From: a virus
Direction: 5' to 3' (one strand)
IMG/VR virus record: IMGVR_UViG_3300045988_167063
Length of the DNA stretch: 64,000 nucleotides
Shown one piece after another: positions 3,341 through 40,829 of this stretch (its first letter is position 1; every line of letters starts with the position of its first letter). Both the position numbers and the translations under genes were made by a program. A model generated the notes under the pieces. The model saw only the letters and a list, made by a program, of their open reading frames with translations. It was not told the DNA's origin and did not search any database.

Positions 3341-3369
3341 TTGACAAATACTAAACTTTTTGATATAAT
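3341..3369 (+). promoter_or_regulatory. sigma70-type promoter
   Basis: TTGACA 3341-3346, 17-nt spacer, TATAAT 3364-3369 preceded by TG. Confidence 0.6.
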
Positions 3370-4071: not shown

Positions 4072-4077
4072 AAAAAT

Positions 4078-4386: not shown

Positions 4387-4397
4387 GGAGTGATTTA

Positions 4398-4898: not shown

Positions 4899-4907
4899 GG
4901 TGATTTA

Positions 4908-5114
4908 ATGAATAAATATATTGTCTTTTTTAATGACATTCAATTTAGTAACTTGTACTACTATAAAGGTGTAAAATATAGAATATCAAGTGAAGATAAA
5001 GATAACTATATTTTAAATCAATATATTGAGCCTTTTATAGTATCAAAAAAATTTGAAAATAAAGATTATTCGGTAGGTGATATTATAGTTGAAAGTAACA
5101 GATATGATTACTAA
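4908..5114 (+). CDS. hypothetical protein
   Basis: ORF with AAGGTG RBS, co-oriented and tightly packed. Confidence 0.5.
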   Translation: MNKYIVFFNDIQFSNLYYYKGVKYRISSEDKDNYILNQYIEPFIVSKKFENKDYSVGDIIVESNRYDY

Positions 5115-5736
5115 TGTAGATGTTTATGGATTTGAAAACGCTATTAAGTGTTCCAAATATCCTATGAGTGTTGATATTTCAACTCTTAATACAGATATAA
5201 CAAATACTGTCAAGAAACTTGGAAATGCTCAAAAAGGAAGCGGACACGATAATTTTTTAAAAGGTATTATTGTGCAATTTGATTTAACAATGACACCTAA
5301 AATGTCGATTGAACTTGAACGCTATCATTTTATTGATTTTATTTCAAGTCAATCAACAATGCACCGAATTACAAAATTTGATTTAGATAAAGCATATATT
5401 GAATATGTTGATAAAAGAATTATTGATATTATGAAAGATAAAGTTAATGAATATAATAAGTTAGTGGAACTCACTAAAGACAAATCTTTTTATGATAATA
5501 ACAAATGGGATATTGAAAATGAAAAAGAATATAAAGATGTTCTAAACAATTTATATCTTGAAATTCTTTACTCTAATCCTTGTGGCTTTAAACTTACAGC
5601 AGGAATGACAACAAATTATCAACAGTTAAAAACAATATATTATCAAAGAAAAAATCATAAACTCCCTGAATGGCGAACATTTTGTGAGTGGATAGAAACA
5701 TTACCATACTTTAAAGAAATTTGTTTGGAGGACTAA
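5089..5736 (+). CDS. ThyX-fold homolog with degenerate signature
   Basis: SGHDNFLKGIIVQFDL...LERYHFIDFISSQSTMH parallels ThyX HGHETPFEH..F.V....RHRxxSxxxxSxRY, but RHR is RYH and SGRY is STMH. Start is TTG 5089 or ATG 5104. Confidence 0.45.
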   Translation: MKVTDMITNVDVYGFENAIKCSKYPMSVDISTLNTDITNTVKKLGNAQKGSGHDNFLKGIIVQFDLTMTPKMSIELERYHFIDFISSQSTMHRITKFDLDKAYIEYVDKRIIDIMKDKVNEYNKLVELTKDKSFYDNNKWDIENEKEYKDVLNNLYLEILYSNPCGFKLTAGMTTNYQQLKTIYYQRKNHKLPEWRTFCEWIETLPYFKEICLED

Positions 5737-5739
5737 AAT

Positions 5740-5976
5740 ATGTCAAGAGCTTATCAATGTGATATTTGTAAAGGTTTTTATTGTGATAATGAAAGCACAA
5801 ATTCTAAAATTATTAAACACAATAATCTTTTTAAACTTTCTGGGACTGATGTATATTCATTATATGACACCAATACTAATAGCAAATTTGACGCAGATAT
5901 TTGCCCAAATTGCACAAAAAGAATACAAGACACGATTGATGATATTCTTAGAGAACACATAGAAATTAGAAACTAA
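5740..5976 (+). CDS. zinc-ribbon protein
   Basis: CDIC ... CPNC cysteine pairs. ATG with GGAGGA RBS. Confidence 0.6.
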   Translation: MSRAYQCDICKGFYCDNESTNSKIIKHNNLFKLSGTDVYSLYDTNTNSKFDADICPNCTKRIQDTIDDILREHIEIRN

Positions 5977-6001
5977 GTAACATATTAAGGAGAAAATAAT
6001 T

Positions 6002-6160
6002 ATGAATAAGAAAGAAATTTGCGAAACAGCATATAACCTCATTTGTGGACTCGGTGATATTGATGATGAAGAATTTATAAATACAATTATCAATGCAATC
6101 TATAATAGAGAGGAATATACAGTTGAAGAAATTTTGGAAGAAGTTGAAATCGAAGATTAA
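6002..6160 (+). CDS. small acidic hypothetical protein (52 aa)
   Basis: Hand-translated ATG 6002 to TAA 6160 with AAGGAG RBS. Below the ORF-track size cutoff. Confidence 0.45.
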   Translation: MNKKEICETAYNLICGLGDIDDEEFINTIINAIYNREEYTVEEILEEVEIED

Positions 6161-6252
6161 ATTAAGAAAAACGCTTTTAGCAGTAGGCTTAGACCTTACT
6201 GAAAAAGATATATTTGACGAATGTGGTATCACATTAAAAATGTAATAAAGGA

Positions 6253-6819
6253 GTGGTTTATTTGATTGTATTAGTCGGTGAAAGTGCAAGTGGAAAGTCA
6301 ACAATAGAAAATGAATTAGCTGATTATTTTGGTTATGAAAAAATTATCACTTTCACCACAAGACCTCAACGCAAAGGTGAAGAAAATGGTAAAGACTATT
6401 ACTTTGTATCTGATAACACATTTAATTCATTAAAAAATACAAATTATTTCTTTGAAACAGCAGAATATAATGGTTGGCAATATGGCTCACCTATTCCCCA
6501 AGAAAGAGATAATAAAGTAATTATATTAACTCCACAAGGTTTAAGAGCATTACAGCGTTATCGAACTAAAAGCAACAATAAAATAGACTTTAAAAGTTTT
6601 TATATTAAAGTGCCACGCAGAGAACGGCTGATAAGGCTACTTAATAGAGGTGATAATATTGAAGAAGCATATCGGAGAAATTTATCTGATTTAGGTATGT
6701 TTTCGGGAATAGAAAATGAAGTTGATTATACAATAAGTAATGAAAACTCTCACGATATTTACGCTTTGTGTTGTAAAATAGACTATCTATATAATAAAGG
6801 TGGTGGTATTCATAATTAG
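6253..6819 (+). CDS. gmk: guanylate kinase-like nucleoside monophosphate kinase
   Basis: P-loop GESASGKST and TTRPQRKGEENGKDYYFVS signature of guanylate kinases. Start is GTG 6253 or TTG 6262 after AAGGAG. Confidence 0.75.
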   Translation: MVYLIVLVGESASGKSTIENELADYFGYEKIITFTTRPQRKGEENGKDYYFVSDNTFNSLKNTNYFFETAEYNGWQYGSPIPQERDNKVIILTPQGLRALQRYRTKSNNKIDFKSFYIKVPRRERLIRLLNRGDNIEEAYRRNLSDLGMFSGIENEVDYTISNENSHDIYALCCKIDYLYNKGGGIHN

Positions 6820-7276
6820 GAAAATTTATCTTGCAGGTGGTATGCAAAATTTAACAGTTCAAGAACAAAAACAATGGCGAAAAAAAGTCATAGACTCTCT
6901 AAAAGACGAATTCAGAATACTTGAAATTGTTGACCCAACCAATTATTATAATTTTGAGCGTAAGATTTATGATACCGAAAGAGAAGTTAAGGCTTGGGAT
7001 ATTCACGAAGTTAAAACAAGTGACTTAATTATTGTTTATTTTAATGACCCACAATCTATCGGTACTGCTCAAGAATTACAATGTGCAAATGATTTTGATA
7101 TACCTGTTCTTGGCATTTATGAAAATGCCCATAATAAAGAACTTCAAATGTTAGGCAAACCTACTGAAAAACTCCACTCTTGGCTCGTTGACTCTTGTAA
7201 TAAGATTTTTGACGATATACCAAGCTGTGTTGAATATATAAAAGAATTTTATTTAGACGGAAGAAGGTTTGTATAA
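6800..7276 (+). CDS. nucleoside 2-deoxyribosyltransferase-like protein
   Basis: IYLAGGM N-terminal motif and IGTAQELQCANDFDIPVLG resemble the NDT family. Exact start unclear. Confidence 0.55.
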   Translation: MVVFIIRKIYLAGGMQNLTVQEQKQWRKKVIDSLKDEFRILEIVDPTNYYNFERKIYDTEREVKAWDIHEVKTSDLIIVYFNDPQSIGTAQELQCANDFDIPVLGIYENAHNKELQMLGKPTEKLHSWLVDSCNKIFDDIPSCVEYIKEFYLDGRRFV

Positions 7277-7277
7277 T

Positions 7278-8447
7278 ATGCAAGTAATTAAGAGAGATGC
7301 CTCTCTTGAAGATTTCAACAAACAAAAAATTGTAATTGCTATTATTTCTGCAATGGAAGAAGGCAATGGTATTAAAGAAGATATTGCTCAAAAAATTGCA
7401 GATGAAATAGAAGAAAAATACTCAAAAAGCGACACTCAAGAAATTGAGATAAACGACATTGAACTTGATGTTTTTAATGCTTTGATTAGTCATAAACAGC
7501 GACTTTCAGCAAGAGCATACGAAGGTTATCGTAGCATTAGAGAATTTCAAAGAGATATTGACAATACTACTGACGGAGAATTATTAACACTTCTTTCAAA
7601 TAAAAATGATTATTGGAAAACTGAAAATTCTAATAAAAATGCAACTCTTGTAACCACTCAAAGAGATTATATGGCAGGAATTGTCAGTAAAGATTTAAGC
7701 GAAAGATTTTTATTGCCACCCGATGTAGTACAGGCACATAAAGAAGGAGTTATCCATTTCCACGATATTGACTACTTCGCTCAATCTGCCCTCCATAATT
7801 GTTGCCTTATCAATCTTCAAGATATGCTACAAAATGGAACAGTAATAAATAATGTTAAAATTGATAAACCTCACAGATTTTTGACTGCTTGTACTATTGC
7901 GACACAAGCTATAACTGCTGTGGCAAGCTCTGAATATGGTGGTTGCACTATAACATTAACAGCACTTGCTCCTTTTGTAAGAGATAGTTATGATATTTAT
8001 TATAACAAATATAAAGACAGAGGATTTAGTGATGAACAATCAAAAGAATATGCAACACAAGACCTAAAAAAAGAGGTCGAAGATGGTGTGCAAACCTTTA
8101 ATTATCAAATCAATTCAATGTCAACAACAAATGGGCAAGCACCTTTTATTACAATCTTTATGTATCTTAATGAAACCGAAGAATATAAAGATGAACTTGC
8201 AATGATTATTGAGGAATTTCTTAATCAACGCATAAAGGGAATAAAAAATAGAAAAGGTGTTTATGTAACTCAAGCATTTCCTAAACTCATATATGCTCTT
8301 GAAGAAGATAATATTACAGAAGATAGCAAATATTGGTATCTTACTGAATTATCTGCTAAATGTACTGCTAAAAGAATGGTGCCTGATTACATAAGTGAAA
8401 AAGTGATGAGAAAACTTAAAGAGGGAAATTGTTTTCCTTCAATGGGT
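7278..8447 (+). CDS. nrdD: anaerobic ribonucleoside-triphosphate reductase NrdD, exon 1
   Basis: ATP-cone start MQVIKRDASLEDFNKQKI. Frame ends ...CFPSMG, then a stop follows 6 codons later. SMG joins CRSFL of exon 2 to give the conserved SMGCRSFL. Confidence 0.85.
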
Positions 8448-8759
8448 GAACTATTGCTCATTTAAAACTATGTGAACTCATAAATATGAGGTGTATAATC
8501 TACGAATAGTAATTGTAGGAAATGACAACTAAAGATTATGCTAATAGGGAATATTCAAATTTGAACAATCCTATGCCAAGATTTAATATAATTATTAAAT
8601 AAGGTTCAACGACTATCGAAAACATAATATAAGAGAAACACTTATATGAAGAAGTGAGTAGAGTACATTCAAGGTGAAACTCCTTGCTTGGAAGTGCATA
8701 GTATTTAATATTTGGTAATAGAATATTAAGTAAAGATATAGTCTAAATAGTAATATTTG
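8448..8759 (+). mobile_element. group I intron (ORF-less) in nrdD
   Basis: Follows exon U (ggT) and ends in G. Contains GGTTCAACGACTATCG and AAGATATAGTC, matching conserved group I core elements as in T4 td and Tetrahymena. Confidence 0.7.
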
Positions 8760-9455
8760 TGTAGAAGTTTTCTTGCTCCTTTTAAAGACACCGAAAATAT
8801 CTCAAATGCGAAAAATTATAAAGACGGAGAATATAAATTCTACGGAAGACTAAATAAAGGGGTTGTAACAATCAATTTACCCGATGTAGCTTTGTCTGCT
8901 GACGGAAACATTGATGAATTTTGGAAGATTTTTGACAAAAGGCTTGAACTTTGTAGAAAAGCATTATATTGTAGATATTTAAAGCTAAAAGGAACTTTGT
9001 CTGATGTTGCTCCTATTCTTTGGCAAGATGGAGCATTAGCAAGGCTAAAACAAGGCGAAACTATTGATAAACTTTTAACAGGTGGATATTCAAGTATTTC
9101 ACTCGGTTATGCAGGTCTTTATGAATGTGTAACTTGCTTGACACATAAGCCTTATATAGACAAAGAGTCTAAAGAACTTGGCTTAAAGATAATGCAATAT
9201 ATGAATGACAAATGCGAAGAATGGGATAAAAGTGATAATATTGGCTATTCAATTTATGGTAGTCCTATTGAGTCAACTACTTATAGTTTTGCCAAACATT
9301 TAAAACAGCGTTTTGGTGATGATGTATTTATAAAAATTGACGGTAGAGATAGAGATTACATTACTAATAGCTATCATTATCCTGTATTTGAGCCGATTGA
9401 CGCCTTTAGTAAATTAAAGTTTGAAAGTGAATTTCAAGCATTATCAACAGGTGGT
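8760..9455 (+). CDS. nrdD: NrdD exon 2
   Basis: Starts CRSFLAPF. The ORF-track TTG start is the intron end. Ends ...ALSTGG before read-through into a stop. Confidence 0.8.
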
Positions 9456-10436
9456 TATTTCTACATACCTTGAGTAGCCACCTTAAACTATGTGAACTGT
9501 TTGCTTAACAGGTGTAGATATTTAATCTGCTAACGGTGGACTCTTTTAACAAAAGACAATACCGTGCCAAGCCTATTATTTATTTATAGGAAGGTGTATC
9601 GACTAATTAGTAGGGTTGAGATAAGCACAATCCGAAGTGCATAGGGTGTAAAGCAGAGTTGTCCTGCTACGCTAAGATATAGTCAGAAGGGAAAATAAAA
9701 TGTATAAATGTGATTTTTGTGGAAGAGAAAGTTTTAAAAAAATCAGATATGGTGGGTATACAGTATGTTCAAAACATATGCACCAAATGAATAAATACGG
9801 AAAAGTTTTAGATAATATTCCAAGAACAAATAATGACTTAAGTGATTTTGTCATAAAAGACAACCTTGTTTATTTTAATGTTTATAACCAAAAGAATATT
9901 AAAATAGGTGAATTTTTTATTGATAAATGTGATTTAGATAAAGTAAGATGGCACAAATGGAGAATAAGCAGTGGGCATATTGTGACAGGTCAACCTGCTA
10001 AAAAGCAACAAAAAGATGTAGGTCATATCATTTTAGGAACAAATCCAAGTGTTGATACTGTAATAGACCATAAAGACGGAAATCCTATGAATAATACAAG
10101 GGAAAATTTAAGAATTTGCCCTCAAAGCAAAAATGTATTAAATAAAAGATATATAAGTAATAATACAAGTAATTTTATAGGGGTTACTGCTGTAAAAGAT
10201 AGAAATGCTTATGACCCCGAAATTAGAATAAACTATAAAAGATGTCATTTAGGATATGAAAAAGATAAAAAACACGCTGTATACAAAAGATATATAGCCG
10301 AGGAATTACTCTTTGGTGAATATGTTAATGAAGAAGAACATAATAAAAAGAAAAACTTTACAAATGATATTCCACAAAACATCAAAAATGAATTGAAAGA
10401 AAAAACAATTCAAAAATTAAAAGCAAAAAACCTTTG
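9456..10436 (+). mobile_element. group I intron with HNH homing endonuclease ORF in nrdD
   Basis: 5' region shares TAAACTATGTGAACT, GCCAAG, GAAGTGCATAG and AAGATATAGTC with the first intron. Ends in G before GCA ATA AGT (AISYVEVPN). Confidence 0.65.
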
Positions 10437-19969: not shown

Positions 19970-22900
19970 CTAATAAGATTTTTGTTTCATTTTTAAAGCA
20001 AAATCTTGTAAATAATTAACAAATTCTTCCCCATTATCCGTTTGAACATTCAAATTAGAAATATTTATATTTGTTGAATTTTCTTGTGAAGAATTATTTA
20101 TCGTGCCATTTCCTGCACCAAAGTTACTGCTACTAAAAGCACCAACATTATTTAAAATACCTGCTAAAGTATTTAAACTTTTAGCATTAACTACCCCACT
20201 ACCTTTTGGTAACATTGTAGTAATACCCTCATTTATTTTTGAGCCAACAACAAGTTCTGTATCTGGACTATCACCAACCAAAGCAATTTCGTCATTTTGA
20301 ACTCGTGCCACACCATCTGCGTGCTTTTTCTTTTTTTTCTTTTTAGATTTAGTCTTTGTAGAAGCAACAATCTTTTCAACTTTCTTATTTACAGATGCTT
20401 TTGAAACTTTTTTAGATGAACTTTTAGTCTTGTTTTCAAGTTCATCTAACTTTTTAGTCGCAGCCTCAAGCTTTTCAACTTGTTTTGTTGCACTTTCAAT
20501 TTTCTTTTGAATAGAAATGTATTTATTTTCAACATTACTTAATGTCGGAATAACATTATTTTTAAGTCCTTCTGTTCCAAAAATATCTGTTGTTCCAAGA
20601 TATTGTATTAAAAGTTGATTATTTTGAATATCTTTATATTTATTAGCAAGAGTATCAACTTGTTCCTTTTGCTTTTCAAGAATACTTATTTGATTATTAA
20701 GGCTATTAAGTATTCCGTCATTAGCCAATTTAATCTCATATTCTTTATCAAGACTATCTTGCTGTGCTTGTAAAATATCTCTTTGACTTTCAAGAGCAGA
20801 CACAGCATTTTCTTGTGCTTTTTCCCTATTATATTCATCTAAAGCTTGCTGTGCCTCATCTACTGCCCTTTCGTCAACACCATAAGTCCATTCGCCATCT
20901 TTAAATGTTTTGACTTTAGTCGCTTTAGCCTTTTGTAGTGCCTCAAGCTTTTCTTGTAATTCAATAGCATCGTTTACAGCATCATTAGCTTCTTCTTGCT
21001 TTTCAATTTCAGTATCAATAGCATCTATTTGAGATTGTAATAAGTCATTTTGTGCTTCTTTTTCAGCCTCAATCTGTTCTGTTCTTGCATCTTTTTCCTC
21101 TTCTAAAAGGTCAATTCTATCTTGAATTTTATCCGAAACAACACTGAAAACATCTTCAATATCCTCGGCTTGTTCTTTCCATTTATCAATGTTGTCCTCA
21201 AGTTTTTGCTTTTCCTTTTCAAGTTGTTTAGAAACCTTTTCAATAGATTTTGCAAGTTTCTTGTTTGCCTCGGTTAATGCCTTTTTAGCCTTTGTGGCTT
21301 TTGATGTAGCAGAAGAATTACTTTTAGTTGCTTTAGTTTGAGCAGCAGTGACCTTAAAGGATTTTTGCATTTGATTATGATAACCTTGATAAGCTTTCAT
21401 AATCTTTTCTTGACCCTCGGTCAATTTGTCTAAATTAACACCTTTACCACCTGCTGCCTCATTTGCAGTTGCAAGAGCAGTAGCAAAGCTTAGCACTCCT
21501 CCCGTAGCATTTGTAGCTTTATTACCCGTTGTTTCGGCAGTATCACCAAAAAGTCCAACTGCACTTTGAGCAAGATTAGACATATCGTTAGTGTTGCCCA
21601 TTGCATAATTATACATATCTTGAACAGCCGAATTGGCTAAAGTTTGAGTATAATTATTTGCAAGAGCTTGATTGAGATTGCCAAGCGTTGTTTTGTTAAT
21701 CTCAAATTGACCGCTATCGTTTATAAGATATTGTAAATATTCAGGTTGGAGGCTTAATAAATCTTGAAGTGTATCATAACTTACACCACCATATTTATTA
21801 TACTCTCTAAGAGCGTCTTTAGCAGTATCTTGAATATCTTTAAGTTCTTTAAGTTGAGTTGCTAAATCTTTTACAGCCTCGGCATTATCCGTAGTGCTAT
21901 CGGTGTTTTCGTCAGTTGAGTCGGTTGACTCGGATTGTGCATTTCTTTGTTTTAAATACTCATCGGTAGTCAAGCCTAAAGACTCTGCAAATTCTTTTGC
22001 TTGTTTTGCCGTTAATCCAAATTTCTTTAAAAGAGTTTTTTGACTTTCTGTCGCTTTATCCGCACTTTTAGCATTTTTGTTTTGAGTGCCATTTAATTTA
22101 TCTAAGGCTTTATTTGCTTCTTCGTTTGTTTGAGCATAAGCACCAAGATTTTCTTTGCCTATTTGATAAGCAATATTAGCATCTTCAAGAGTTTCTTTAT
22201 CTTGTTTTTGTTGTTCTGTGAGTTTTTTAATTTCTTCACTTGTTTGAGCTATGGCACTATCATAATTTTTATATCTGTTATTGCCTTGTTTTCTTAATTC
22301 GTCACTAACTTCTTGAAGTTTATCTTGATATTTTTGCAAGGCTTCTATTTGAGCTGTAATCCCCTTAGCAGATTTTACATCATCAAATTCAGACATTATA
22401 GAAATTTGTCCTTGACTCTGTTGTAATCGCTGAGATGTTAAATATCCTGTTAAAGAAGTGCCTTCTGTGGCTCTTTTAGTTGCACTTTTAACCTCACCAA
22501 CAGACTCTCTATATGTGGAAGCTGCCTCTTCAGCGTTTTGCTCTTTAAGAATTTCTAAATACTTTTCTCGTTCTTTAGTAGTGCCTTTAATAGCCTCTGT
22601 ATATTCACCAAAAATGTCGGTATTATTTTTGAGAATAGTATTTAATTCTTTTTCGGATAAATTTGTGTCGCTTAAATATTTTTCAAGTTCTTTATATTTA
22701 TCTGCACTTTCACTATAAGACTTTAGATTATCTCTTGCTTCTTTTGCGTTTTGTTCTTGTGTTTGCTTATATTTGTTATAAGCCATTACACCTATGCTTA
22801 TAGCAGATGTAACAAGACCGATAGCAGAAATAAGACCTTGTGTTGAAATTGCAAAACCCTCATTAGCAGTTGTTGCAGTATTTACACCTGTAACATATCC

Positions 22901-23542
22901 TGCAAAATGTTTTACAACTGTGGCTAAACCATTTGCCAAATCTTGTTTTATAGAATTAGCAAGATTTGCAATTCCACTTATAACACTATCAATTTTAAGG
23001 GCAATCACTTTAGCATTGATAGTAACTAAAATACCACCTATGGTAGTTAAAATAGCAACCAAATTGTTGCCATAGCCAATAAATTTGACTATACCTGTGC
23101 CAGCATCTACAAGATTCTTTAAAAATGTGTTAAGTCCACCCTCACCGAGTACAACCTCAGTAAACGCAGACTTTAATTGTGTAACCTTTGCTTGCAAGGA
23201 CTCCATATAAGCTTCGTTTTCTTTTGTTGCCGAGCCTTGCGAAGAAAGTGCTGTTATATTTGCCTCGATTGCCGTGTTGAAGTTACTCATAACGGCTGCG
23301 AATACCTTATATTGATGGTTAGAAGCAAGAGCATTACCAAGAGCAACTTGTTCCGTGTTGCTCATTGTTTCCCATTTAGGTGCTAAATCGGCAAGAATAT
23401 CATAGGTTGAACGAAGATTACCATTTCCGTCTTTAATTGCAACACCATATTCGGCTAATGCTTTTTCATTCTTTGCTATTCGGCTTGAAATGGTATTTAA
23501 ACCTCTTGCAACCTGTTGTGACTTGCCTTGGAATATTTCTGT
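19970..23542 (-). CDS. tail tape measure protein, exon 2
   Basis: The frame is open upstream of the ORF-track ATG back to TEIFQGKSQQVARGLNTISSRI (TMP core motif). Long coiled-coil body. Confidence 0.8.
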   Translation of the reverse strand, partial: TEIFQGKSQQVARGLNTISSRIAKNEKALAEYGVAIKDGNGNLRSTYDILADLAPKWETMSNTEQVALGNALASNHQYKVFAAVMSNFNTAIEANITALSSQGSATKENEAYMESLQAKVTQLKSAFTEVVLGEGGLNTFLKNLVDAGTGIVKFIGYGNNLVAILTTIGGILVTINAKVIALKIDSVISGIANLANSIKQDLANGLATVVKHFAGYVTGVNTATTANEGFAISTQGLISAIGLVTSAISIGVMAYNKYKQTQEQNAKEARDNLKSYSESADKYKELEKYLSDTNLSEKELNTILKNNTDIFGEYTEAIKGTTKEREKYLEILKEQNAEEAASTYRESVGEVKSATKRATEGTSLTGYLTSQRLQQSQGQISIMSEFDDVKSAKGITAQIEALQKYQDKLQEVSDELRKQGNNRYKNYDSAIAQTSEEIKKLTEQQKQDKETLEDANIAYQIGKENLGAYAQTNEEANKALDKLNGTQNKNAKSADKATESQKTLLKKFGLTAKQAKEFAESLGLTTDEYLKQRNAQSESTDSTDENTDSTTDNAEAVKDLATQLKELKDIQDTAKDALREYNKYGGVSYDTLQDLLSLQPEYLQYLINDSGQFEINKTTLGNLNQALANNYTQTLANSAVQDMYNYAMGNTNDMSNLAQSAVGLFGDTAETTGNKATNATGGVLSFATALATANEAAGGKGVNLDKLTEGQEKIMKAYQGYHNQMQKSFKVTAAQTKATKSNSSATSKATKAKKALTEANKKLAKSIEKVSKQLEKEKQKLEDNIDKWKEQAEDIEDVFSVVSDKIQDRIDLLEEEKDARTEQIEAEKEAQNDLLQSQIDAIDTEIEKQEEANDAVNDAIELQEKLEALQKAKATKVKTFKDGEWTYGVDERAVDEAQQALDEYNREKAQENAVSALESQRDILQAQQDSLDKEYEIKLANDGILNSLNNQISILEKQKEQVDTLANKYKDIQNNQLLIQYLGTTDIFGTEGLKNNVIPTLSNVENKYISIQKKIESATKQVEKLEAATKKLDELENKTKSSSKKVSKASVNKKVEKIVASTKTKSKKKKKKKHADGVARVQNDEIALVGDSPDTELVVGSKINEGITTMLPKGSGVVNAKSLNTLAGILNNVGAFSSSNFGAGNGTINNSSQENSTNINISNLNVQTDNGEEFVNYLQDFALKMKQKSY

Positions 23543-23544
23543 CT

Positions 23545-24663
23545 TTAAATTTTAATAAAATCGTCTAAAATCTTTTTAAATTTTCCATTTCTTATTATAT
23601 CATATTTTAATTTCAATAATGGAATATTATGTTTTTTACAATAATTTTCCTTTATTTTATCTCTCTCGATTTGATTTTGATAATTTACCAACGCTTTATC
23701 TTTAGCAATATTTCCAAAAAGAACAGGTTTATAATGTTGCTCACCCTGCACTTCAATTAAAATATTTTGTTTTGGCAAATAAAAATCAAAGGGATAAGGC
23801 TTAATATTTCCACAATCTTCAAATTTATATTCAGTGATAAAATCAATATTTTTAAATTTTAAATAATTTAACACAATTTTTTCCAATATTGATTTACTAC
23901 ACTCACTACAATAAATGCTTTTTCTTTGTTTTATACTATCCCAACTATGATAAGTAATATTTCCACACATACACTTTATTTTAAGTAGTTCATCACAATT
24001 TTTATATTCTGTACTTAATATTTCTATGCCTAAATTATTAAGCTTTATAAAATGTTTAATATTATCAATTGTATACGGATTAGATTTTATAAAAGGACTA
24101 AACATAGTATCTCTTCTCTGTTTTAAATTAGCATAACAAATCTTACCTTTATATCCATTTTTATCAATAACATCTATTAAAGTATCATTATATTCTATTT
24201 GACTTTTATCAAGAATAGTTAAACCGTGTTCGCTAAATACTTCTTCATATTGTTGTTCGTTCAATCTTTGAGCAATTCCTTTTCTACTTAAATAACATTT
24301 AGGACACAAATAATAATGTCTATTATAAATATTATTCCAATCACTTTTAAATAAATGCCCATTTAAATCTCTAAACAACATTTTAGTTGTCGAGTTTATA
24401 TATTTATGTGCTAAAATTTCAACAGGTATATTATTATTCTTAATATACTGCTTGATATTATTTAACGCAAATGGATTAACTGAATAAAAAGGAGAAAAAT
24501 CATTTCCAACATTAAATCTTGACCAACTTATAGAATATTTATATTCATTTTTGTCCTTAAATAAAACTTTTGTTTTATATCCCTGAAACTTAAAATCTAA
24601 TGGAATATATCCCTTGTTATATATTGAATTTATTATTGTTTCTTTAGTTACTTTCTTACTCAT
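23545..24663 (-). CDS. intron-encoded endonuclease, Vsr-like PD-(D/E)XK nuclease C-terminal domain
   Basis: Two repeated N-terminal modules (SPFYSVNPFALNNIKQYIKNNNI / SPFIKSNPYTIDNIKHFIKLNNL), Zn-ribbon CMCG...CSEC, nuclease motif FDFYLP...ILIEVQGEQH. Confidence 0.65.
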   Translation of the reverse strand: MSKKVTKETIINSIYNKGYIPLDFKFQGYKTKVLFKDKNEYKYSISWSRFNVGNDFSPFYSVNPFALNNIKQYIKNNNIPVEILAHKYINSTTKMLFRDLNGHLFKSDWNNIYNRHYYLCPKCYLSRKGIAQRLNEQQYEEVFSEHGLTILDKSQIEYNDTLIDVIDKNGYKGKICYANLKQRRDTMFSPFIKSNPYTIDNIKHFIKLNNLGIEILSTEYKNCDELLKIKCMCGNITYHSWDSIKQRKSIYCSECSKSILEKIVLNYLKFKNIDFITEYKFEDCGNIKPYPFDFYLPKQNILIEVQGEQHYKPVLFGNIAKDKALVNYQNQIERDKIKENYCKKHNIPLLKLKYDIIRNGKFKKILDDFIKI

Positions 24664-24803
24664 ATATCAATTTCTTTTTTAGACGATTTAATTTTCTTAT
24701 ATTTTCATATAAGAACCGACTATATTTTCATTTTAATAATAAAATGTAGGCTCTTTTGCTTTCGCTACTCTACTCACTTCGTCTACTTTTGTAGCTTATT
24801 CTA

Positions 24804-24832
24804 ATTATACCACAATTAGTTACATTTGTCAA
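24804..24832 (-). promoter_or_regulatory. sigma70-type promoter inside the intron, upstream of the endonuclease ORF
   Basis: Minus strand: TTGACA-aatgtaactaattgtgg-TATAAT (17-nt spacer, TG extended), same style as the early promoters. Confidence 0.4.
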
Positions 24833-25026
24833 GTATTTTTTACTTGATTGTTTTCGATAGTCTGTGAACCTTTCCTACTATTTCAAGTAAGACTTGGCTG
24901 CTGATTATCCATTATTACATATACATAATTTTCAAACATTCACACTTATAGTTTCCTATTATGTTGTAGTCTATGTATCTTTAGGACTTTCCAGCAATTT
25001 AGCCTATACAGGCAAGAAATTATTTC

Positions 25027-25719
25027 ACCTGCTGTTACTAATGCAATAGTTTGCTCAAAACTATTGCCATATGTACTTAAAGCAGCACCTGCCGCTGTTA
25101 AACCTTTACCAATATCACCTGATGAAACAGAAAAATTATTAGAAGTTTCATTGATAGCATCTATAATATGTTCGCTATTTTCTGCTTGAATATCAAAAGC
25201 TTTCATCTGTGAAATAAGAACAGCTGAAGCATCAGAAGCACTTAATTCTTCATCTGCAATATTTTGGTATAAGCTTGATATTTTTGCCAATTGAGCTGAT
25301 TGTTCATCTGAATAACCCGACTTTTTAAATTCTGTCGCAGCTTCAGTCATCTCAATACGAGTTCTTGCGACACTTTCACCCAACTCACCTAATTGTTGAG
25401 TGTATTCATTTAAGCTGTCACCACTTAAATCACTAACTTTTTTAAATTCGGTTAAAGCATCATCAAAATCTTTTACAATTTGAACTGCATTTGTAACACT
25501 TGCGGTAAATAATCCAATTACTGCTGTACTTATACCGAATTTAGCTACTTTCTTGGTAGTATCAATAAAATCACTACCAAGACTTTTTATTTTTGCACCT
25601 AACCCTGTAATTTGGTTAGTAGCGTCTTTAGTGTCAACGCTAATTTTCTTTTTACTTAATTGTTTTTGAACATCAGAAGTATCAACTCTGACCTTCGCAT
25701 TTATGAAAAAATCAGCCAA
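25027..25719 (-). CDS. tail tape measure protein, exon 1
   Basis: TTG start directly after the RuvC stop. Ends ...FEQTIALVTAG. The remaining 26 codons of the ORF-track frame are intron read-through. Confidence 0.8.
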
Positions 25720-26265
25720 CTAATCACCCACCTTTGATTTTCGACCAAAAGCATTATTATTTTTGGGTTTAATTTGCGAATATGCAATATTTATTGCATC
25801 AGCAATATCATCTTGATTATATTTGCTTGTTTTACTTTTCCATATTAAATCAAGACCAAATGTTTTATTTGCATATTCTATACTTGATTGCTTCATCAAT
25901 TCTCGTTCTGTGTCTTTTCTTTTGCCTGTAAATAAGCCTAAATCAGCTCTCCATTTAGACACAGCAATATATTCGACTTTTATATCAAAAGCCGTTACAA
26001 TACCTGCTATAATGCCCTGCAAGAACGCTAATATTTTTAGTGTTTGAGGGTTTTTCATTATAAGAGGCACATCTTCTATGTAAATAATATCTATCTTATG
26101 AGTTACAATAAATTCTTTAAGCCTATCACCCATCCAAAATGCCCTATCTCGCCAATCAACTATGTCTTTAGGTATTGCCCAAACACCATAGTCGATTAAC
26201 CTATCATCCTTAAATAAGCCATAGCCACTTTTAGTTGAACTCATATCAAGACCCAAACTAATCAT
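25720..26265 (-). CDS. RuvC-like Holliday junction resolvase
   Basis: ISLGLDMSSTKSGYG (first catalytic Asp), IIYIEDVP, DDIADAINIAY, a typical RuvC-fold acidic tetrad layout. Confidence 0.75.
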   Translation of the reverse strand: MISLGLDMSSTKSGYGLFKDDRLIDYGVWAIPKDIVDWRDRAFWMGDRLKEFIVTHKIDIIYIEDVPLIMKNPQTLKILAFLQGIIAGIVTAFDIKVEYIAVSKWRADLGLFTGKRKDTERELMKQSSIEYANKTFGLDLIWKSKTSKYNQDDIADAINIAYSQIKPKNNNAFGRKSKVGD

Positions 26266-32902: not shown

Positions 32903-32969
32903 AATATAATCACCTTTCTTTGTTTTATTTCTTATGGTGACTACATTATATCACATAATATTTAAGATG

Positions 32970-33218
32970 TCAAGAGGAAAATGGAAAATTATCGTTAGTT
33001 TTTTCTACTACTTTTGTTGGTGGTACACAACAACAATCTAAATTTGGCAATATTTTTTCATACATTACCCTACTTCTAAATATATTATCAATTTGACTTA
33101 AACACTCTGCAACCTCTTTAAGTTCGCTAACATACATTTCATCATATTTTCTTGACTCTATTTCTGCTATTAGTCTATCAATTTGTGTATCAATCTTATC
33201 TCTTATACAATTTTCCAT
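32970..33218 (-). CDS. small helical protein with C-terminal CCC motif
   Basis: ATG preceded by GAAAGGTGGCTTTATAGAA. C-terminal ...LPNLDCCCVPPTKVVEKTNDNFPFSS. Confidence 0.5.
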   Translation of the reverse strand: MENCIRDKIDTQIDRLIAEIESRKYDEMYVSELKEVAECLSQIDNIFRSRVMYEKILPNLDCCCVPPTKVVEKTNDNFPFSS

Positions 33219-38356: not shown

Positions 38357-38739
38357 CATTAAACTATTTTTCTTTTATTATAAAACGCTACTTTTATAAT
38401 GCTATTTCGTTCACACTAATAGCCACATTCTTTCGATATGTGATAAGACTATTTCTTCACCTTTAAATTAAAGGGCAACCCATTTCTTCCTCCAAACACT
38501 TGAGGCTTTACTCTCTCCCGAGATAGTCGTTTAACCTTTTCCTATTCAGAACTTGGCGACCAAACTTCCATTGTTGCTTCTACTTAGGATTTAACCATAT
38601 AGAAATTTCTGTTGTTGTTTCTGCTTTCGCAACATTCATAAAATCATATTTCATATTTTATTGTAGTAACAGAACTTTAGGATTTACTGGTTTTAAGGTT
38701 GTGTCCTATGCTAATCACTTAACATACGGAGCATTAGTT
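38357..38739 (-). mobile_element. group I intron (ORF-less) in major tail protein gene
   Basis: Minus strand contains GGTTAAACGACTATCTCGG and GAAGAAATAGTC core elements. The 5' end GAGT|AACTAATGCTCC mirrors the terL intron GAGT|AAATAATAATGCTCC. Confidence 0.6.
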
Positions 38740-38880
38740 ACTCTGACCGCCCCTTGCTTCCTCATTACTAATAGCCATATTAATACCTGAGTCAGTCAAG
38801 GTTTTGGTAGATACAATAAGATTATTATTATTATCAAAAAGGTCAACATTAGCAACAGATGCCAAAAGTCCTTTAGCCAT
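38740..38880 (-). CDS. major tail protein, exon 1
   Basis: ATG 38880 after AAAGGAG. MAKGLLASVANVDLF...EEARGGQS, then a stop two codons later. Confidence 0.6.
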
Positions 38881-38905: not shown

Positions 38906-40030
38906 TTATATAAAATAAAAATGCAATCCATATACGGATTGTCTTTCTTTTCTACAAACTCTGCCGACACAATCTTTTAGTATATTCAATGTCTTTTCAG
39001 CTTGAGAAATGCTTTCAAATACTTTATCTTTTTCGACGCAATAAACCTTTTTTCTTTTTATGTTTTTTGAAGGAGTATATAATCCTCTCTTACTATCTTC
39101 AACATTATAGTTTACAAGGTTTAATTTATTTGCTTTTTTTAATAATTTACAAAACTCAAAAGAAGATATTTTTAACTTTTCTGCCATTTCTTTCATTGAC
39201 AATATACCAAGATTGTTATTAAACATATCAACAGCATAAGAAAGTAAATTGTGGTTAATCAATTCATTTTCTAATTTATCCCAATCAAATTTGTTTAAAT
39301 CAAAATAATTAAATAAACTACTATTTAAAATATTATTTTTTATATATTCAAAATCACTCTTAAAACAATTTATTCTAATTATTTTATAGCCGTTTTGAGT
39401 TGCCATTAAATTTTTTTGTCTATCTATTTCTTCTTGATTTATGTTTTTATTAAAACCTATAATTCCCGTTTTATGAAATATTCCATCCATTTCAATTATA
39501 ATTTTATTATTCTCAATTACAAAATCATAAATCCTTCTATTCGACCACTCAAACATTTTTTCTCGCTCAAAAGGAATGTTTAATTGTTTAAGTAAACAAT
39601 ACATAAATCTATTCGGATAACTATATCCTTTCCCACACTTAGGGCAAGCAAATCCTTTATTAACCAAATCTGATAATTTTTGTTTCCTTTCATTGTGACA
39701 AATAGGACAGACCATATCCACCTCTTGTGAACTTCCAAAGGTATAATTATAAGCTTCTTTTTTATTTTTAAAATAAACTAAATATTGTGGATAAATAGTA
39801 GCAAAATCATTTTTTCCAATAACGAGTTTTCTTCCGCCACAAACACCACATCCACTAACACCTCTCATAATAGCATTTGCCTCATTACAAATGCCCTCTG
39901 TCCCACAAATTTTACACTTGTATTTTATAGGAGAGTGTGCATTTTTATATTTGCTAATTATTTTTAAATTAGGGTTATTTTTACTAACCCTTTTTTCAAA
40001 ATCTTTTTGAGATAACTGATTATATGTCAT
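38906..40030 (-). CDS. free-standing Vsr-like PD-(D/E)XK endonuclease with Zn-ribbons
   Basis: ATG 40030, so no overlap with the upstream gene. CKICG...CGVCG, CPIC...CPKCG, nuclease motif IYDFVIENNKIIIEMDGIFH. Lies between structural genes, just upstream of the intron-containing tail gene. Confidence 0.6.
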   Translation of the reverse strand: MTYNQLSQKDFEKRVSKNNPNLKIISKYKNAHSPIKYKCKICGTEGICNEANAIMRGVSGCGVCGGRKLVIGKNDFATIYPQYLVYFKNKKEAYNYTFGSSQEVDMVCPICHNERKQKLSDLVNKGFACPKCGKGYSYPNRFMYCLLKQLNIPFEREKMFEWSNRRIYDFVIENNKIIIEMDGIFHKTGIIGFNKNINQEEIDRQKNLMATQNGYKIIRINCFKSDFEYIKNNILNSSLFNYFDLNKFDWDKLENELINHNLLSYAVDMFNNNLGILSMKEMAEKLKISSFEFCKLLKKANKLNLVNYNVEDSKRGLYTPSKNIKRKKVYCVEKDKVFESISQAEKTLNILKDCVGRVCRKERQSVYGLHFYFI

Positions 40031-40037
40031 TATAAAA

Positions 40038-40829
40038 TTAACCGTTAATTTGTTGTATTTTCTGTTCAAAAGACTCTGCGTCTGTGAACATTTCTTTATA
40101 TTTATCAACCCTCTTTTTGAACATAGGATGTTTAACATCGTCTTTAACTTCATATTTAAAAGAGGCTTGTATTATCTTTTGTGCAAGATAAATTTCACTA
40201 TTTATACAATGATTAAATATTTGTTCAAAAGTTCTATAAACCATATTATTTATCTGTTCCATTGTATATCCATTTTTACTCATTACATAAGTTTTCTGTT
40301 CTTCTAATGTTGGATTGTGAACTCCTTTATTAACCATTTTACAATATTTTTCATATTCGGCTTTTACATCAGGATTGACATATCTATCATCATAATCTTT
40401 GTCATTTTGAAATAATATTATCTTTTTTATATCATCAAATTCTTTTGCCGATATAATACTTTCTATAATATCATTTTCACCAAGAACTACAATACAATCT
40501 TTGCCATTATCTTTTGATAAAGCAATATTTTTATGAATACATAATTGAAACAACATTGCAAATAAACTTTGAGTATTTATATCTACTAAAACTCGATTGA
40601 TTAAAAATTCTAAATAATTCATTTGAATAACATCAATATCATTTATTGTATTTTTATCAATTTCTAAAAGTTCTTTACAATTTGCATAAATAGGAAAATC
40701 TTTTACTTTAATGGGGTATATAAATATTTCTGCTCCTTTTTTTAGTTCATAAGGAACAGCATACTCGTTAATAAAATAATTTAATTGCAAGTTATCAATA
40801 TCAACCAATACAACCACCACTTTGAGCAT
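40038..40829 (-). CDS. hypothetical structural-module protein
   Basis: Position between head-tail genes and the tail tube gene. Confidence 0.45.
   Translation of the reverse strand: MLKVVVVLVDIDNLQLNYFINEYAVPYELKKGAEIFIYPIKVKDFPIYANCKELLEIDKNTINDIDVIQMNYLEFLINRVLVDINTQSLFAMLFQLCIHKNIALSKDNGKDCIVVLGENDIIESIISAKEFDDIKKIILFQNDKDYDDRYVNPDVKAEYEKYCKMVNKGVHNPTLEEQKTYVMSKNGYTMEQINNMVYRTFEQIFNHCINSEIYLAQKIIQASFKYEVKDDVKHPMFKKRVDKYKEMFTDAESFEQKIQQING

What the first reader, a model, noticed from the sequence alone, without database searches (positions are those of the whole stretch)
23543..25026. Tape measure gene split by a group I intron whose Vsr-like endonuclease ORF ends 2 nt before the 3' splice site and has its own host-type promoter
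...FEQTIALVTAG (ends ggT at 25027) and TEIFQGKSQQVARGLNTISSRI... (starts 23542) rebuild the conserved TMP core. The insert has GGTTCACAGACTATCG and AAATATAGTCGG upstream of a 372-aa ORF with a D...E.QG.QH PD-(D/E)XK motif. The ORF stop (23545-23547) is followed by only AG before the exon, so the intron 3' structural elements must overlap coding sequence. A perfect TTGACA-17-TATAAT promoter (24804..24832) lies inside the intron core. It could express the endonuclease early and independently of the late host gene.
Basis: partly seen in the sequence, partly recalled or inferred. Interest (0 to 1): 0.65.

Follow-up and report, generated by a model that had tools for sequence, protein, structure and literature searches.

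The report
Mobile intron splitting phage tail gene

Summary
On the minus strand the tape measure gene is split at T25027 | A23542. The joined protein aligns without a gap to uninterrupted tape measure proteins. The 1484-nt insert (25026..23543) is a group I intron. Rfam RF00028 matches over its full length (50.2 bits, E 5.6e-12), but only in a 421-nt scan. P1 has a U·G pair at the 5' splice site, the intron ends in G, and P10 is present. In eight related introns P1, P4-P7 and P9 are kept by compensatory changes. The whole P1-P9 core lies 5' of the 372-aa ORF. A 13-17 bp long-range helix (24693-24677 / 23570-23554) encloses the ORF; its 3' strand is the ORF's last codons, and it covaries between lineages. 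The ORF's C-terminal domain folds like Vsr and I-Bth0305I (EDxHD family). The perfect TTGACA-17-TATAAT is one of six in the window (0.04 expected). It lies in the insertion between P7 and P3', and its hexamers are the only conserved blocks there in most related introns. Group I introns in tape measure genes, Vsr-like intron endonucleases, intron-internal promoters and ORF-ribozyme overlap are all published. Splicing, promoter activity and cleavage remain untested.

The parts
25027..25719 (-). Tape measure gene exon 1. It ends ...GCA GGT, and the last base T25027 forms the U·G pair of P1.
   Evidence: ORF list. PHROG tape measure profile 4211, positions 558-758. Alignment to intact tape measure proteins.
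23543..25026 (-). Group I intron, 1484 nt, running from G25026 to the terminal G23543.
   Evidence: Rfam, folding, P1/P10 table, consensus fold with covariation.
24696..25049 (-). Ribozyme P1-P9: a full-length match to Rfam Intron_gpI, lying entirely 5' of the ORF.
   Evidence: 50.2 bits (gathering score 50), E 5.6e-12, model positions 1-253 of 253. The 3.5-kb scan and the whole-window scan missed it.
25008..25032 (-). P1 hairpin. The exon strand GCAGGU (25032-25027) pairs with the guide GCCUGU (25013-25008). The loop contains AUUUCU (25020-25015), which pairs with exon 2 AGAAAU (23540-23535) to form P10.
   Evidence: The guide changes with the exon in relatives: GCGGGU/GCCCGU in L009, CUGGU/GCCAG in L011. 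P10 is AAUUGUU/AACAAUU in L011.
24855..24870 (-). Conserved R element GGTTCACAGACTATCG, which includes the 5' strand of P7.
   Evidence: P7 pairs are kept by two compensatory changes among relatives.
24753..24854 (-). An insertion of about 100 nt between P7 and P3', made of hairpins (P7.1/P7.2-like), that carries the promoter.
   Evidence: Insertion in the Rfam alignment. Hairpins 24847-24829, 24819-24801 and 24794-24783.
24804..24832 (-). Sigma-70/sigma-A consensus promoter: TTGACA (24832-24827), 17-nt spacer, TGn, TATAAT (24809-24804). The predicted transcription start is near 24797.
   Evidence: The hexamers are the conserved blocks of this region in relatives. The promoter is perfect in L009, L012, L015, L008, L011 and L017.
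24716..24752 (-). P3' (24752-24747), P8 hairpin (24746-24729), and the S element / P7 3' strand AAATATAGTCGG (24727-24716).
24694..24715 (-). P9 hairpin: 9 bp closed by a GAAA loop.
   Evidence: Compensatory changes in relatives.
24677..24693 (-). 5' strand of the long-range helix (P9.1-like). It lies immediately 3' of P9 and 14 nt upstream of the ORF start codon.
   Evidence: Inverted repeat I4: 17 nt, 94% complementary, 1106 nt apart. In the minimum-free-energy fold. Covaries between lineages.
23545..24663 (-). Homing endonuclease ORF, 372 aa. It has two repeated N-terminal module pairs with zinc ribbons and a C-terminal Vsr-like nuclease domain (about residues 274-372).
   Evidence: PHROG 559 at E 1.9e-46. 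315 homologues. Structure model with pLDDT 93.6. Foldseek matches to Vsr and I-Bth0305I.
23554..23570 (-). 3' strand of the long-range helix. It lies inside the last codons of the ORF (K-I-L-D-D-F-I).
23543..23544 (-). The last two intron bases, A and G. G23543 is the terminal guanosine at the 3' splice site.
   Evidence: All eight related introns end in G.
19970..23542 (-). Tape measure gene exon 2, starting ACA GAA ATA (T-E-I).
   Evidence: PHROG 4211 positions 825-1673 for the part from M23365.

Best explanation
This is a mobile group I intron, with an IA-like architecture, inserted at the conserved LVTAG|TE site of a phage tape measure gene.

Splicing. On the late pre-mRNA the ribozyme (P1-P9, all within the first 331 nt) folds. 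A long-range helix then pairs the segment just after P9 with the last codons of the endonuclease ORF. This loops out about 1.1 kb of ORF and brings the terminal G23543 and the P10 partner in exon 2 to the catalytic core. Splicing joins T25027 to A23542 and restores one continuous tape measure protein.

Homing. The ORF encodes a Vsr-like (EDxHD-type) homing endonuclease. It would cut intron-less tape measure alleles of co-infecting relatives, so that repair copies the intron into them.

Endonuclease expression. The endonuclease is probably transcribed from its own consensus host-RNA-polymerase promoter. That promoter is embedded in the hairpin insertion between P7 and P3'. The resulting transcript lacks P1-P7 and so cannot splice.

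Translation versus splicing. The long-range helix lies just upstream of the start codon here, and in relatives it covers the ribosome-binding site or start codon. Endonuclease translation and 3' splice-site docking should therefore exclude each other.

Shown here: the exon join, the ribozyme fold and its covariation, the long-range helix and its covariation, the nuclease fold and its invariant residues, and the conservation of the promoter hexamers.

Inferred: actual splicing, promoter activity and timing, the translation/splicing exclusion, and cleavage specificity.
For: Exon join:
- The joined protein gives a single ungapped alignment to intact tape measure proteins.
- The two halves hit adjacent positions of one PHROG profile.

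Ribozyme:
- Rfam RF00028 matches over its full length at 50.2 bits, E 5.6e-12.
- The unconstrained minimum-free-energy fold recovers P1, P3, P4, P5, P6, P8, P9 and the long-range helix.
- RNAalifold on eight lineages recovers P1, P4-P7 and P9, with 23 of 51 pairs showing compensatory changes.
- In all eight introns exon 1 ends in T and the intron ends in G. P1 and P10 follow the exon sequence.

Long-range helix:
- It is a 17-nt inverted repeat, 94% complementary.
- The window has AAATCGTCTAAAA/TTTTAGACGATTT, and L009 has AAATTATCAATTAT/ATAATTGATAATTT, which differ by five double changes.
- Cognate strand pairs form helices of 11-16 bp (8 bp in L012, where one search shows a two-part 8+8 bp pairing), against 5-10 bp for cross-lineage non-cognate pairs.

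Mobility family:
- Homologues at 28-66% identity all sit inside tape measure genes. Nine loci share this insertion site (L008-L015 and L018), L017 is inserted 12 nt upstream, and L016 sits at a separate site.

Nuclease:
- The model has pLDDT 93.6.
- The top PDB structural matches are Vsr 1cw0 and 1vsr, and I-Bth0305I 3r3p with TM-score 0.76.
- D293, E304, G307, H310, D335 and K338 are invariant in 50 sequences.

Promoter:
- Six perfect sites in the window against 0.04 expected, all with TGn.
- The other five lie 20-50 nt upstream of a ribosome-binding site and start codon.
- The promoter is perfect in six related lineages although the flanks diverge.
- Of 52 related introns from other genes, only about five carry a match with at most one mismatch.
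Against: - No RNA or biochemical data exist for this element.
- Rfam scores only at threshold, and only in a short scan. The 3.5-kb and whole-window scans found nothing.
- Exon 1's reading frame runs 26 codons into the intron before a stop, so ribosomes would enter P1-P5.
- The ORF has a weak ribosome-binding site in the window copy.
- Transcripts from the internal promoter contain both strands of the long-range helix, so that helix cannot distinguish the two transcript types.
- Residue 306 is Q here, while 31 of 50 homologues have D (18 have Q), so catalytic competence is assumed.
- Neither the protein nor a profile of the family matches I-Bth0305I at the sequence level.
Confidence: 0.8

Rival explanations
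1. The endonuclease gene is a free-standing insertion that fractures the tape measure gene. No splicing occurs and two polypeptides are made, as in the HEG-split genes of T-even-like phages.
For: Exon 1's frame has its own stop at 24948-24946. A long ORF starts at M23365 in exon 2. Fractured genes with Vsr-like endonucleases are documented (PMC2677866).
Against: A full-length group I match, covarying P1, P10, P7 and P9, a terminal G and a U·G pair in all eight relatives, and an exact in-frame restoration of an invariant T-A-G motif would have no explanation. The 59 codons from 23542 to 23366 carry conserved tape measure sequence but have no start codon of their own.
Confidence: 0.03
2. The TTGACA-17-TATAAT is not a working promoter. 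It is kept only because those bases form hairpins of the ribozyme periphery, or it is an AT-rich coincidence.
For: The -35 box overlaps the 3' strand of one hairpin, and the -10 box lies in the loop and 3' strand of the next. The ORF start is 140 nt downstream, unlike the other five sites. Most related introns with endonuclease genes lack such a promoter.
Against: The stems around the hexamers covary (CAAGUA/UACUUG versus AAUAC/GUAUU; CUAAUU/AAUUAG versus CUAUAUA/UAUAUAG), yet the hexamers and the 17-nt spacing stay fixed. L018 has a perfect promoter at a different place in a different ribozyme, upstream of the same endonuclease family. There are 6 sites against 0.04 expected, and all carry TGn.
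Confidence: 0.15
3. The promoter is real but serves the phage. It would drive exon 2 and downstream tail genes, or act as a retention device, rather than express the endonuclease.
For: In T4, promoters for essential downstream genes are embedded in endonuclease genes (PMC2988022). No terminator separates the ORF from exon 2.
Against: The promoter travels with this intron and endonuclease family through phages whose tape measure proteins are only 30-50% identical. Exon 2 alone cannot make a functional tape measure protein.
Confidence: 0.1
4. The intron still splices, but the endonuclease is inactive or has another role (for example as a maturase), so the element is now inherited only vertically.
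For: Endonuclease and host-gene divergence are similar between the window and L009 (66% against 73% and 52%), which fits vertical descent. Residue 306 is Q rather than the majority D.
Against: The ORF is intact at full length, all invariant nuclease and zinc-ligand residues are kept, and Q306 occurs in 18 of 50 family members. The same insertion site recurs in distantly related tape measure genes.
Confidence: 0.12

Closest known systems
Group I introns in tape measure genes of Bacillus cereus-group prophages (TMP-IVS1/2/3; Tourasse & Kolsto 2008, PMC2504315)
   Same: The same host gene type, subgroup IA ribozymes of phage origin, insertion at conserved tape measure positions, and P1/P10 adapted to the site.
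   Different: Those introns lie in prophages of Bacillus. Several of them lack a complete endonuclease gene. That paper does not mention promoters (a term search found none). Here the host is an uncultivated AT-rich phage related to Enterocloster phages, and the endonuclease gene is intact and Vsr-like.
I-Bth0305I and the EDxHD (Vsr-like) homing endonucleases (Dassa 2009, PMC2677866; Taylor 2011, PMC3239194); PHROG 559 endonucleases in terminase introns of Bastillevirinae (PMC11878797)
   Same: A C-terminal Vsr-fold nuclease (Foldseek TM-score 0.76 to 3r3p). Invariant Asp, Glu, His and Asp, with the same 17-residue Asp-to-His spacing as D196 to H213. Encoded in phage group I introns. The window ORF matches PHROG 559 at E 1.9e-46.
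   Different: The N-terminal DNA-binding region consists of repeated zinc-ribbon / treble-clef modules, not two NUMOD2 helix-turn-helix motifs. No sequence-level match to 3r3p was found. The ORF lies after P9, not in P5. The target is a tape measure gene, not recA or a terminase gene.
Phage T4 nrdD (sunY) intron with I-TevII (from memory: Xu & Shub 1989; Michel et al. 1990 and 1992, Genes Dev)
   Same: The catalytic core lies at the 5' end. The endonuclease ORF sits in a 3' peripheral loop, so the 3' splice site is about 1 kb from the core and has to be brought back by pairings in the 3'-terminal domain.
   Different: In sunY there is non-coding 3'-terminal structure downstream of the ORF. Here the stop codon is 2 nt from the splice site and the closing helix is coding sequence. 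The endonuclease family also differs (GIY-YIG there, Vsr-like here).
Independent expression of T4 intron endonucleases from intron-internal promoters, with structure-sequestered ribosome-binding sites (reviewed in PMC2988022 and PMC3073962)
   Same: A promoter inside the intron gives a transcript that is separate from the host gene's transcript. RNA structure near the translation start limits translation. The ORF overlaps ribozyme helices.
   Different: The T4 introns lie in early/middle genes and use phage middle or late promoters placed next to the ORF. Here the host gene is a late structural gene and the promoter is a host consensus type. It is separated from the ORF by P3', P8, P7' and P9. 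No I-TevI-type operator resembling the homing site was found.

Membership tests
Group I intron (Rfam RF00028) | Covariance-model score at or above the curated gathering score | tested here: met
   50.2 bits against a gathering score of 50, E 5.6e-12, full model 1-253. The match was found only when 421 nt were scanned, and larger scans missed it.
Group I intron (Rfam RF00028) | P1 formed by the 5' exon end and an internal guide sequence, with a U·G pair at the 5' splice site, and a terminal G at the 3' end | tested here: met
   P1 is GCAGGU/GCCUGU. The intron ends in G23543. The same holds in all eight lineages, with the guide covarying.
Group I intron (Rfam RF00028) | Conserved P3-P9 helices supported by compensatory changes | tested here: met
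   RNAalifold on eight lineages recovers P4, P5, P6, P7 and P9, with 23 of 51 pairs showing double changes. P3 and P8 appear in the single-sequence fold.
Group I intron (Rfam RF00028) | Guanosine-dependent self-splicing with exon ligation | not testable with these tools
   In silico, ligation restores a gap-free tape measure protein. No RNA data are available.
Subgroup IA group I introns | Extra helices P7.1/P7.2 between P7 and P3' | tested here: inconclusive
   A 102-nt insertion with three hairpins sits at that position. It was not compared with curated subgroup models. No P2 is apparent.
EDxHD / Vsr-like homing endonucleases (I-Bth0305I) | Vsr-type nuclease fold | tested here: met
   The Foldseek top hits are 1cw0_A (E 1.1e-3), 3r3p_B (E 5.9e-3, TM-score 0.76) and 1vsr, each with probability 1.00. 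The query model has pLDDT 93.6.
EDxHD / Vsr-like homing endonucleases (I-Bth0305I) | Conserved catalytic Asp, Glu, His and Asp residues | tested here: met
   D293, E304, H310 and D335 are invariant in 50 homologues. The D293-to-H310 spacing of 17 residues equals that of D196 to H213 in I-Bth0305I (PMC3239194). The residue-by-residue equivalence is inferred and was not checked by superposition.
EDxHD / Vsr-like homing endonucleases (I-Bth0305I) | N-terminal DNA-binding region with two NUMOD2-type helix-turn-helix motifs | tested here: not met
   The N-terminal part contains zinc-ribbon / treble-clef modules instead. Family members match DUF4379 and Zn_ribbon_CSL. The family profile matches bL31 and Kti11 zinc ribbons. 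C120, C123, C231, C233, C252 and C255 are invariant.
EDxHD / Vsr-like homing endonucleases (I-Bth0305I) | Significant sequence similarity to characterised members | tested here: not met
   Searching PDB sequences with the protein and with the family profile did not find 3r3p or Vsr. Only weak Pfam hits to DUF559 and DUF2726 were found.
EDxHD / Vsr-like homing endonucleases (I-Bth0305I) | Site-specific cleavage of the intron-less allele next to the insertion site | not testable with these tools
   There is indirect support only: homologues sit in tape measure genes in every locus examined.
HNH endonucleases (the name attached to PHROG 559) | HNH / His-Me finger catalytic motif | tested here: not met
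   No HNH family appears in the Pfam scans of the protein or of 50 homologues, and the fold is Vsr-like. PMC11878797 likewise reports a VSR signature for PHROG 559. The name is a misnomer.
Sigma-70 / sigma-A housekeeping promoter | -35 TTGACA, 17-nt spacer, -10 TATAAT, optional TGn extension | tested here: met
   A 12/12 match with TGn. It is one of 6 in the window against 0.04 expected.
Sigma-70 / sigma-A housekeeping promoter | Transcription initiation 6-8 nt downstream of the -10 box | not testable with these tools
   The predicted start is near 24797. No transcript data are available.

The most novel reading that the evidence does not exclude
A family of tape-measure-gene introns has built a host consensus promoter into the ribozyme's own P7-P3' hairpins. 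In the same family the endonuclease's translation start region and last codons form the helix that docks the 3' splice site. One RNA segment would then serve as promoter DNA, as ribozyme periphery and as 5' UTR. Endonuclease expression would be early and independent of the late host gene. Endonuclease translation and intron splicing would be mechanically exclusive. This reverses the T4 arrangement of an early gene with a late endonuclease.
Probability: 0.35. Interest if true: 0.5.

Novelty: new member of a known kind. Interest (0 to 1): 0.35.

Why it matters
The finding has practical value for annotation. Such introns make tape measure genes look like two hypothetical genes plus an 'HNH endonuclease'. 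Enterocloster phage CB457P1 is annotated in that way, and standard whole-contig Rfam scans miss the ribozyme.

Biologically, it adds a well-sampled lineage in which three constraints can be studied by comparison. One stretch carries both a conserved promoter and ribozyme hairpins, and another carries both protein-coding sequence and a ribozyme helix.

If the promoter is active early, it would be a counter-example to the 'better late than early' timing of intron endonucleases in T4. None of this opens a long-standing question.

Tried and rejected
- Rfam on 3.5 kb around the finding and on the whole window found nothing. Only a 421-nt scan found the intron, so these negative scans say nothing about absence.
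- Searching PDB sequences with the ORF and with the family profile gave no nuclease hit. Structure prediction and fold search were needed instead.
- I tested for an I-TevI-type autorepression operator, that is, similarity between the homing site and the promoter region. The best 20-mer matches (11-14 of 20) did not exceed shuffled controls in any of seven lineages. Rejected.
- I tested whether position 306 (Q instead of D) marks a dead enzyme. Q occurs in 18 of 50 homologues, so it is a normal variant.
- I tested whether the ORF had extended towards the splice site ('core creep'). The protein C-termini have the same length relative to the helix in all lineages. Instead, the window and L009 lineage lack about 26 nt of 3' tail, including a terminal hairpin that is present in L008, L012, L013 and L015.
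- Duplex-energy comparison of cognate and non-cognate strands using 75-nt and 60-nt segments was confounded by the P9 hairpin and AT richness. I replaced it with a contiguous-helix test on trimmed segments.
- I looked for horizontal transfer by comparing endonuclease and host-gene identity. The result was not decisive.
- An intein was excluded because the ORF is out of frame and the exon frame stops at 24948-24946. A group II intron was excluded because there is no reverse transcriptase and the fold is group I.
Full report
**Observation**

- An ORF ending ...FEQTIALVTAG reads on into 26 unrelated codons and stops at 24948-24946.
- A 372-aa ORF spans 24663..23545.
- Two bases after its TAA stop (A23544, G23543), the frame TEIFQGKSQQVARGLNTISSRI... 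begins at 23542. It continues into the 1131-aa ORF that ends at 19970.

The joined segment was searched as protein against 50,697 phage records. It matches 159 records, and in 122 of them a single place covers at least 80% of the query, all of them uninterrupted tape measure proteins. An alignment with four of these proteins has no gap at the junction, and the flanking T and A are invariant. The two halves hit PHROG tape measure profile 4211 at positions 558-758 and 825-1673. The unlisted 59 codons lie between them.

**The insert is a group I intron**

Rfam found nothing in a 3.5-kb scan or in the whole window. A scan of 24640-25060 gave a full-length Intron_gpI match at 25049..24696: 50.2 bits against a gathering score of 50, E 5.6e-12. 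The earlier misses come from the speed filters.

The match places the whole P1-P9 ribozyme 5' of the ORF. It also shows an insertion of about 100 nt between P7 and P3'.

I folded the intron without constraints, with the ORF interior removed. The fold recovers these helices:
- P1: GCAGGU/GCCUGU, with U25027 paired to G.
- P3: 25006-25001 / 24752-24747.
- P4, P5 and a P5 extension.
- P6 and P6a.
- Three hairpins in the insertion.
- P8.
- P9, 9 bp with a GAAA loop.

P7 forms a pseudoknot with P3, so this kind of folding cannot recover it. It is recovered in the consensus fold of eight homologous introns, where 23 of 51 predicted pairs keep pairing through changes on both sides, two of them in P7.

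In all eight introns exon 1 ends in T and the intron ends in G. The guide sequence changes with both exons:
- P1 is GCAGGU/GCCUGU in the window, GCGGGU/GCCCGU in L009 and CUGGU/GCCAG in L011.
- P10 is AUUUCU/AGAAAU in the window and AAUUGUU/AACAAUU in L011.

**How a splice site 1.15 kb from the core is used**

The strongest inverted repeat in the region pairs 24693-24677, immediately after P9, with 23570-23554. It is 17 nt long, 94% complementary, and its arms are 1106 nt apart. The second arm is the codons for K-I-L-D-D-F-I at the end of the ORF. The pairing also appears in the minimum-free-energy fold.

The helix is conserved as a structure, not as a sequence.
- The window has AAATCGTCTAAAA/TTTTAGACGATTT. 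L009, whose endonuclease is 66% identical, has AAATTATCAATTAT/ATAATTGATAATTT. These differ by five double substitutions.
- The L008/L012/L013/L015 group, L017 and L011 each use yet other sequences.
- After trimming to the relevant segments, cognate strand pairs give contiguous helices of 11-16 bp (8 bp in L012), against 5-10 bp for cross-lineage non-cognate pairs.

In L008, L012, L013 and L015 the stop codon lies 22-24 nt before the splice site, inside a small terminal hairpin. In L011 the distance is 23 nt, in L017 it is 11 nt, and in L009 and the window it is 3 and 2 nt. The protein C-termini have the same length relative to the helix. The window lineage has therefore lost about 26 nt of 3' tail; the ORF has not been extended.

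In L009 the 5' strand of the helix ends at the start codon. In the L008/L012/L013/L015 group it covers the ribosome-binding site. In the window it ends 14 nt upstream of the start codon. I infer that helix formation and endonuclease translation exclude each other. This is in line with published work on I-TevI (reviewed in PMC3073962).

**The endonuclease**

PHROG 559 matches at E 1.9e-46. That family is named 'HNH endonuclease', but a 2025 study reports a VSR signature for it in terminase introns of Bacillus phages (PMC11878797). Pfam gives only sub-threshold DUF559 and DUF2726 hits plus zinc-ribbon hits.

The large protein database holds 315 homologues. In an alignment of 50 of them, D293, E304, G307, H310, D335 and K338 are invariant, as are six cysteines. 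Position 306 is D in 31 sequences and Q in 18, including the window protein.

An AlphaFold model built on this alignment has mean pLDDT 93.6. Its best PDB structural matches are Vsr (1cw0, 1vsr) and the catalytic domain of I-Bth0305I (3r3p; TM-score 0.76 over the target; 21% identity).

The 17-residue spacing from D293 to H310 equals that from D196 to H213 in I-Bth0305I (PMC3239194). E304 falls at the position of the extra conserved acidic residue described for this family (PMC2677866).

The N-terminal two-thirds differs from I-Bth0305I. It consists of repeated modules with zinc ribbons, not NUMOD2 helix-turn-helix motifs. The nuclease domain therefore belongs with the EDxHD/Vsr-like homing endonucleases, and the DNA-binding part is of another type.

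**A family of tape measure introns**

Every homologue whose genomic context I fetched lies inside a tape measure gene. These span 28-66% identity and eleven loci, L008 to L018. Nine of them are at the same LVTAG|TE site (L008-L015 and L018). L017 is inserted 12 nt upstream, and L016 sits at a separate site further along the gene.

Identity of the endonuclease and of the host gene to the window copy is of the same order. I therefore cannot separate vertical descent from homing.

**The promoter**

TTGACA-17-TATAAT at 24832..24804 is one of six perfect matches in the window, against 0.04 expected. All six carry the TGn extension. The other five lie 20-50 nt upstream of a ribosome-binding site and a start codon. 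Two of those five sit next to the DNA-metabolism genes on the plus strand (a RecD-like helicase and nrdD): one lies about 400 nt upstream of the helicase gene and the other just downstream of it. This phage therefore uses consensus host-type promoters, and the intron carries one of them.

It lies in the insertion between P7 and P3'. The -35 box overlaps the 3' strand of one hairpin. The -10 box lies in the loop and 3' strand of the next hairpin.

Conservation in relatives:
- L009, L012, L015, L008, L011 and L017 have a perfect promoter at the same place. L013 has TTGATT as its -35 box.
- In the eight-lineage alignment, TTGA and TATAA are the main invariant blocks of this region. The surrounding stems change by compensatory substitutions.
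- L018 has a different ribozyme but the same endonuclease family, and has a perfect promoter elsewhere in the intron.
- Among 52 other phage introns that share the P5-extension motif, only about five have a match with at most one mismatch. The only perfect one is a near-identical copy of the window intron.

The promoter is therefore a selected feature of this element and not a general property of the intron class.

A transcript starting near 24797 would contain P3', P8, the 3' strand of P7, P9 and the ORF, but not P1-P7. It could not splice. Activity and timing are untested. I found no I-TevI-like operator.

**Comparison with what is known**

Each component has a precedent:
- Group I introns at three sites in tape measure genes of Bacillus cereus-group prophages were described in 2008 (PMC2504315).
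- Vsr-like endonucleases in phage group I introns were described in 2009 and 2011 (PMC2677866, PMC3239194).
- Intron-internal promoters and structure-limited translation of intron endonucleases were established in T4 (PMC2988022).
- Overlap of endonuclease ORFs with ribozyme helices has been reviewed under the name 'core creep' (PMC3073962).
- From memory, the T4 nrdD (sunY) intron has the same layout: a 5' core, a 3' ORF and a remote 3' splice site.

Three details are particular to this case. The promoter is a host consensus type, sits inside a late structural gene, and is separated from its ORF by core strands. The closing helix is made of coding sequence that ends 15 nt from the splice site. 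The DNA-binding region is based on zinc ribbons.

**Verdict**

The element is a new, well-preserved member of a known kind. Interest is moderate to low.

Noticed in passing
window 8466-8756 (+): An anaerobic ribonucleotide reductase (nrdD-like) gene is split between ORFs 7269..8465 and 8757..9473. The two halves match PHROG 487 profile positions 2-392 and 393-612, which are contiguous. The roughly 290-nt gap has a partial Rfam group I match at 8544-8615 (30.2 bits, E 5.5e-6). This is probably an ORF-less group I intron in the same gene that carries an intron in T4.
   Followed up: partly
window 38403-38760 (-) and 38906-40153 (-): A third intron-like core. It is homologous (nhmmer E 1.4e-23) to the ribozyme of another tape-measure-gene intron (L016), but Rfam does not match it. 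It appears to interrupt a gene that starts at 38880. Immediately upstream lies a free-standing 415-aa paralogue of the same Vsr-like endonuclease family (PHROG 4538 and 559). A free-standing endonuclease next to an ORF-less intron recalls 'collaborative homing'.
   Followed up: partly
window 681-709 (+), 3341-3369 (+), 32945-32973 (-), 59791-59819 (+), 63946-63974 (+): Five further perfect TTGACA-17-TGnTATAAT promoters. Each is intergenic and lies 20-50 nt upstream of a ribosome-binding site and start codon. They probably form the phage's set of host-polymerase (early) promoters.
   Followed up: partly
window 24640-25060, compared with scans of 22500-26000 and 1-64000: Rfam/Infernal speed filters hide this intron unless a window of only a few hundred bases is scanned. 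Whole-contig scans would miss introns with large inserts in AT-rich phage DNA.
   Followed up: yes
L001 (Enterocloster phage CB457P1, OP172753.1) 3557-8912: In this cultured phage the tape measure gene is also split, about 100 codons downstream of the window's site, after ...GGKTQV. The insert matches the window's intron core by blastn and contains a 157-aa ORF with a similar zinc-ribbon motif. All pieces are annotated as hypothetical proteins.
   Followed up: partly
L014 607-4080; L018 1927-7032: Some relatives carry several intervening sequences in one tape measure gene. L018 has the Vsr-like endonuclease intron plus a GIY-YIG endonuclease ORF further downstream. L014 has an extra 305-aa ORF between tape measure fragments.
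   Followed up: no
L018 2619-2647: A perfect TTGACA-17-TATAAT promoter lies in a different part of a different ribozyme (upstream of P6/P7), but still upstream of a homologue of the same endonuclease. This suggests repeated selection for an intron-internal promoter.
   Followed up: partly
window 24946-25026 (-): The exon 1 reading frame continues 26 codons into the intron, through P1-P5, before its stop. Many bacterial group I introns instead have a stop immediately after the splice site. The relatives show similarly long read-through.
   Followed up: no
window 25720-26265 (-): A RuvC-like Holliday junction resolvase gene lies directly upstream of the tape measure gene, the same order as in Enterocloster phage PMBT24. 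A recombination gene is unusually placed inside a tail module, next to a homing site.
   Followed up: no
L034 and L111 (IMG/VR contigs): Other phage group I introns carrying unrelated ORFs in the P6 or P7 region have near-consensus promoters (one mismatch, with TGn) just upstream of the ORF. Host-type promoters inside phage introns may be more common than reported.
   Followed up: no
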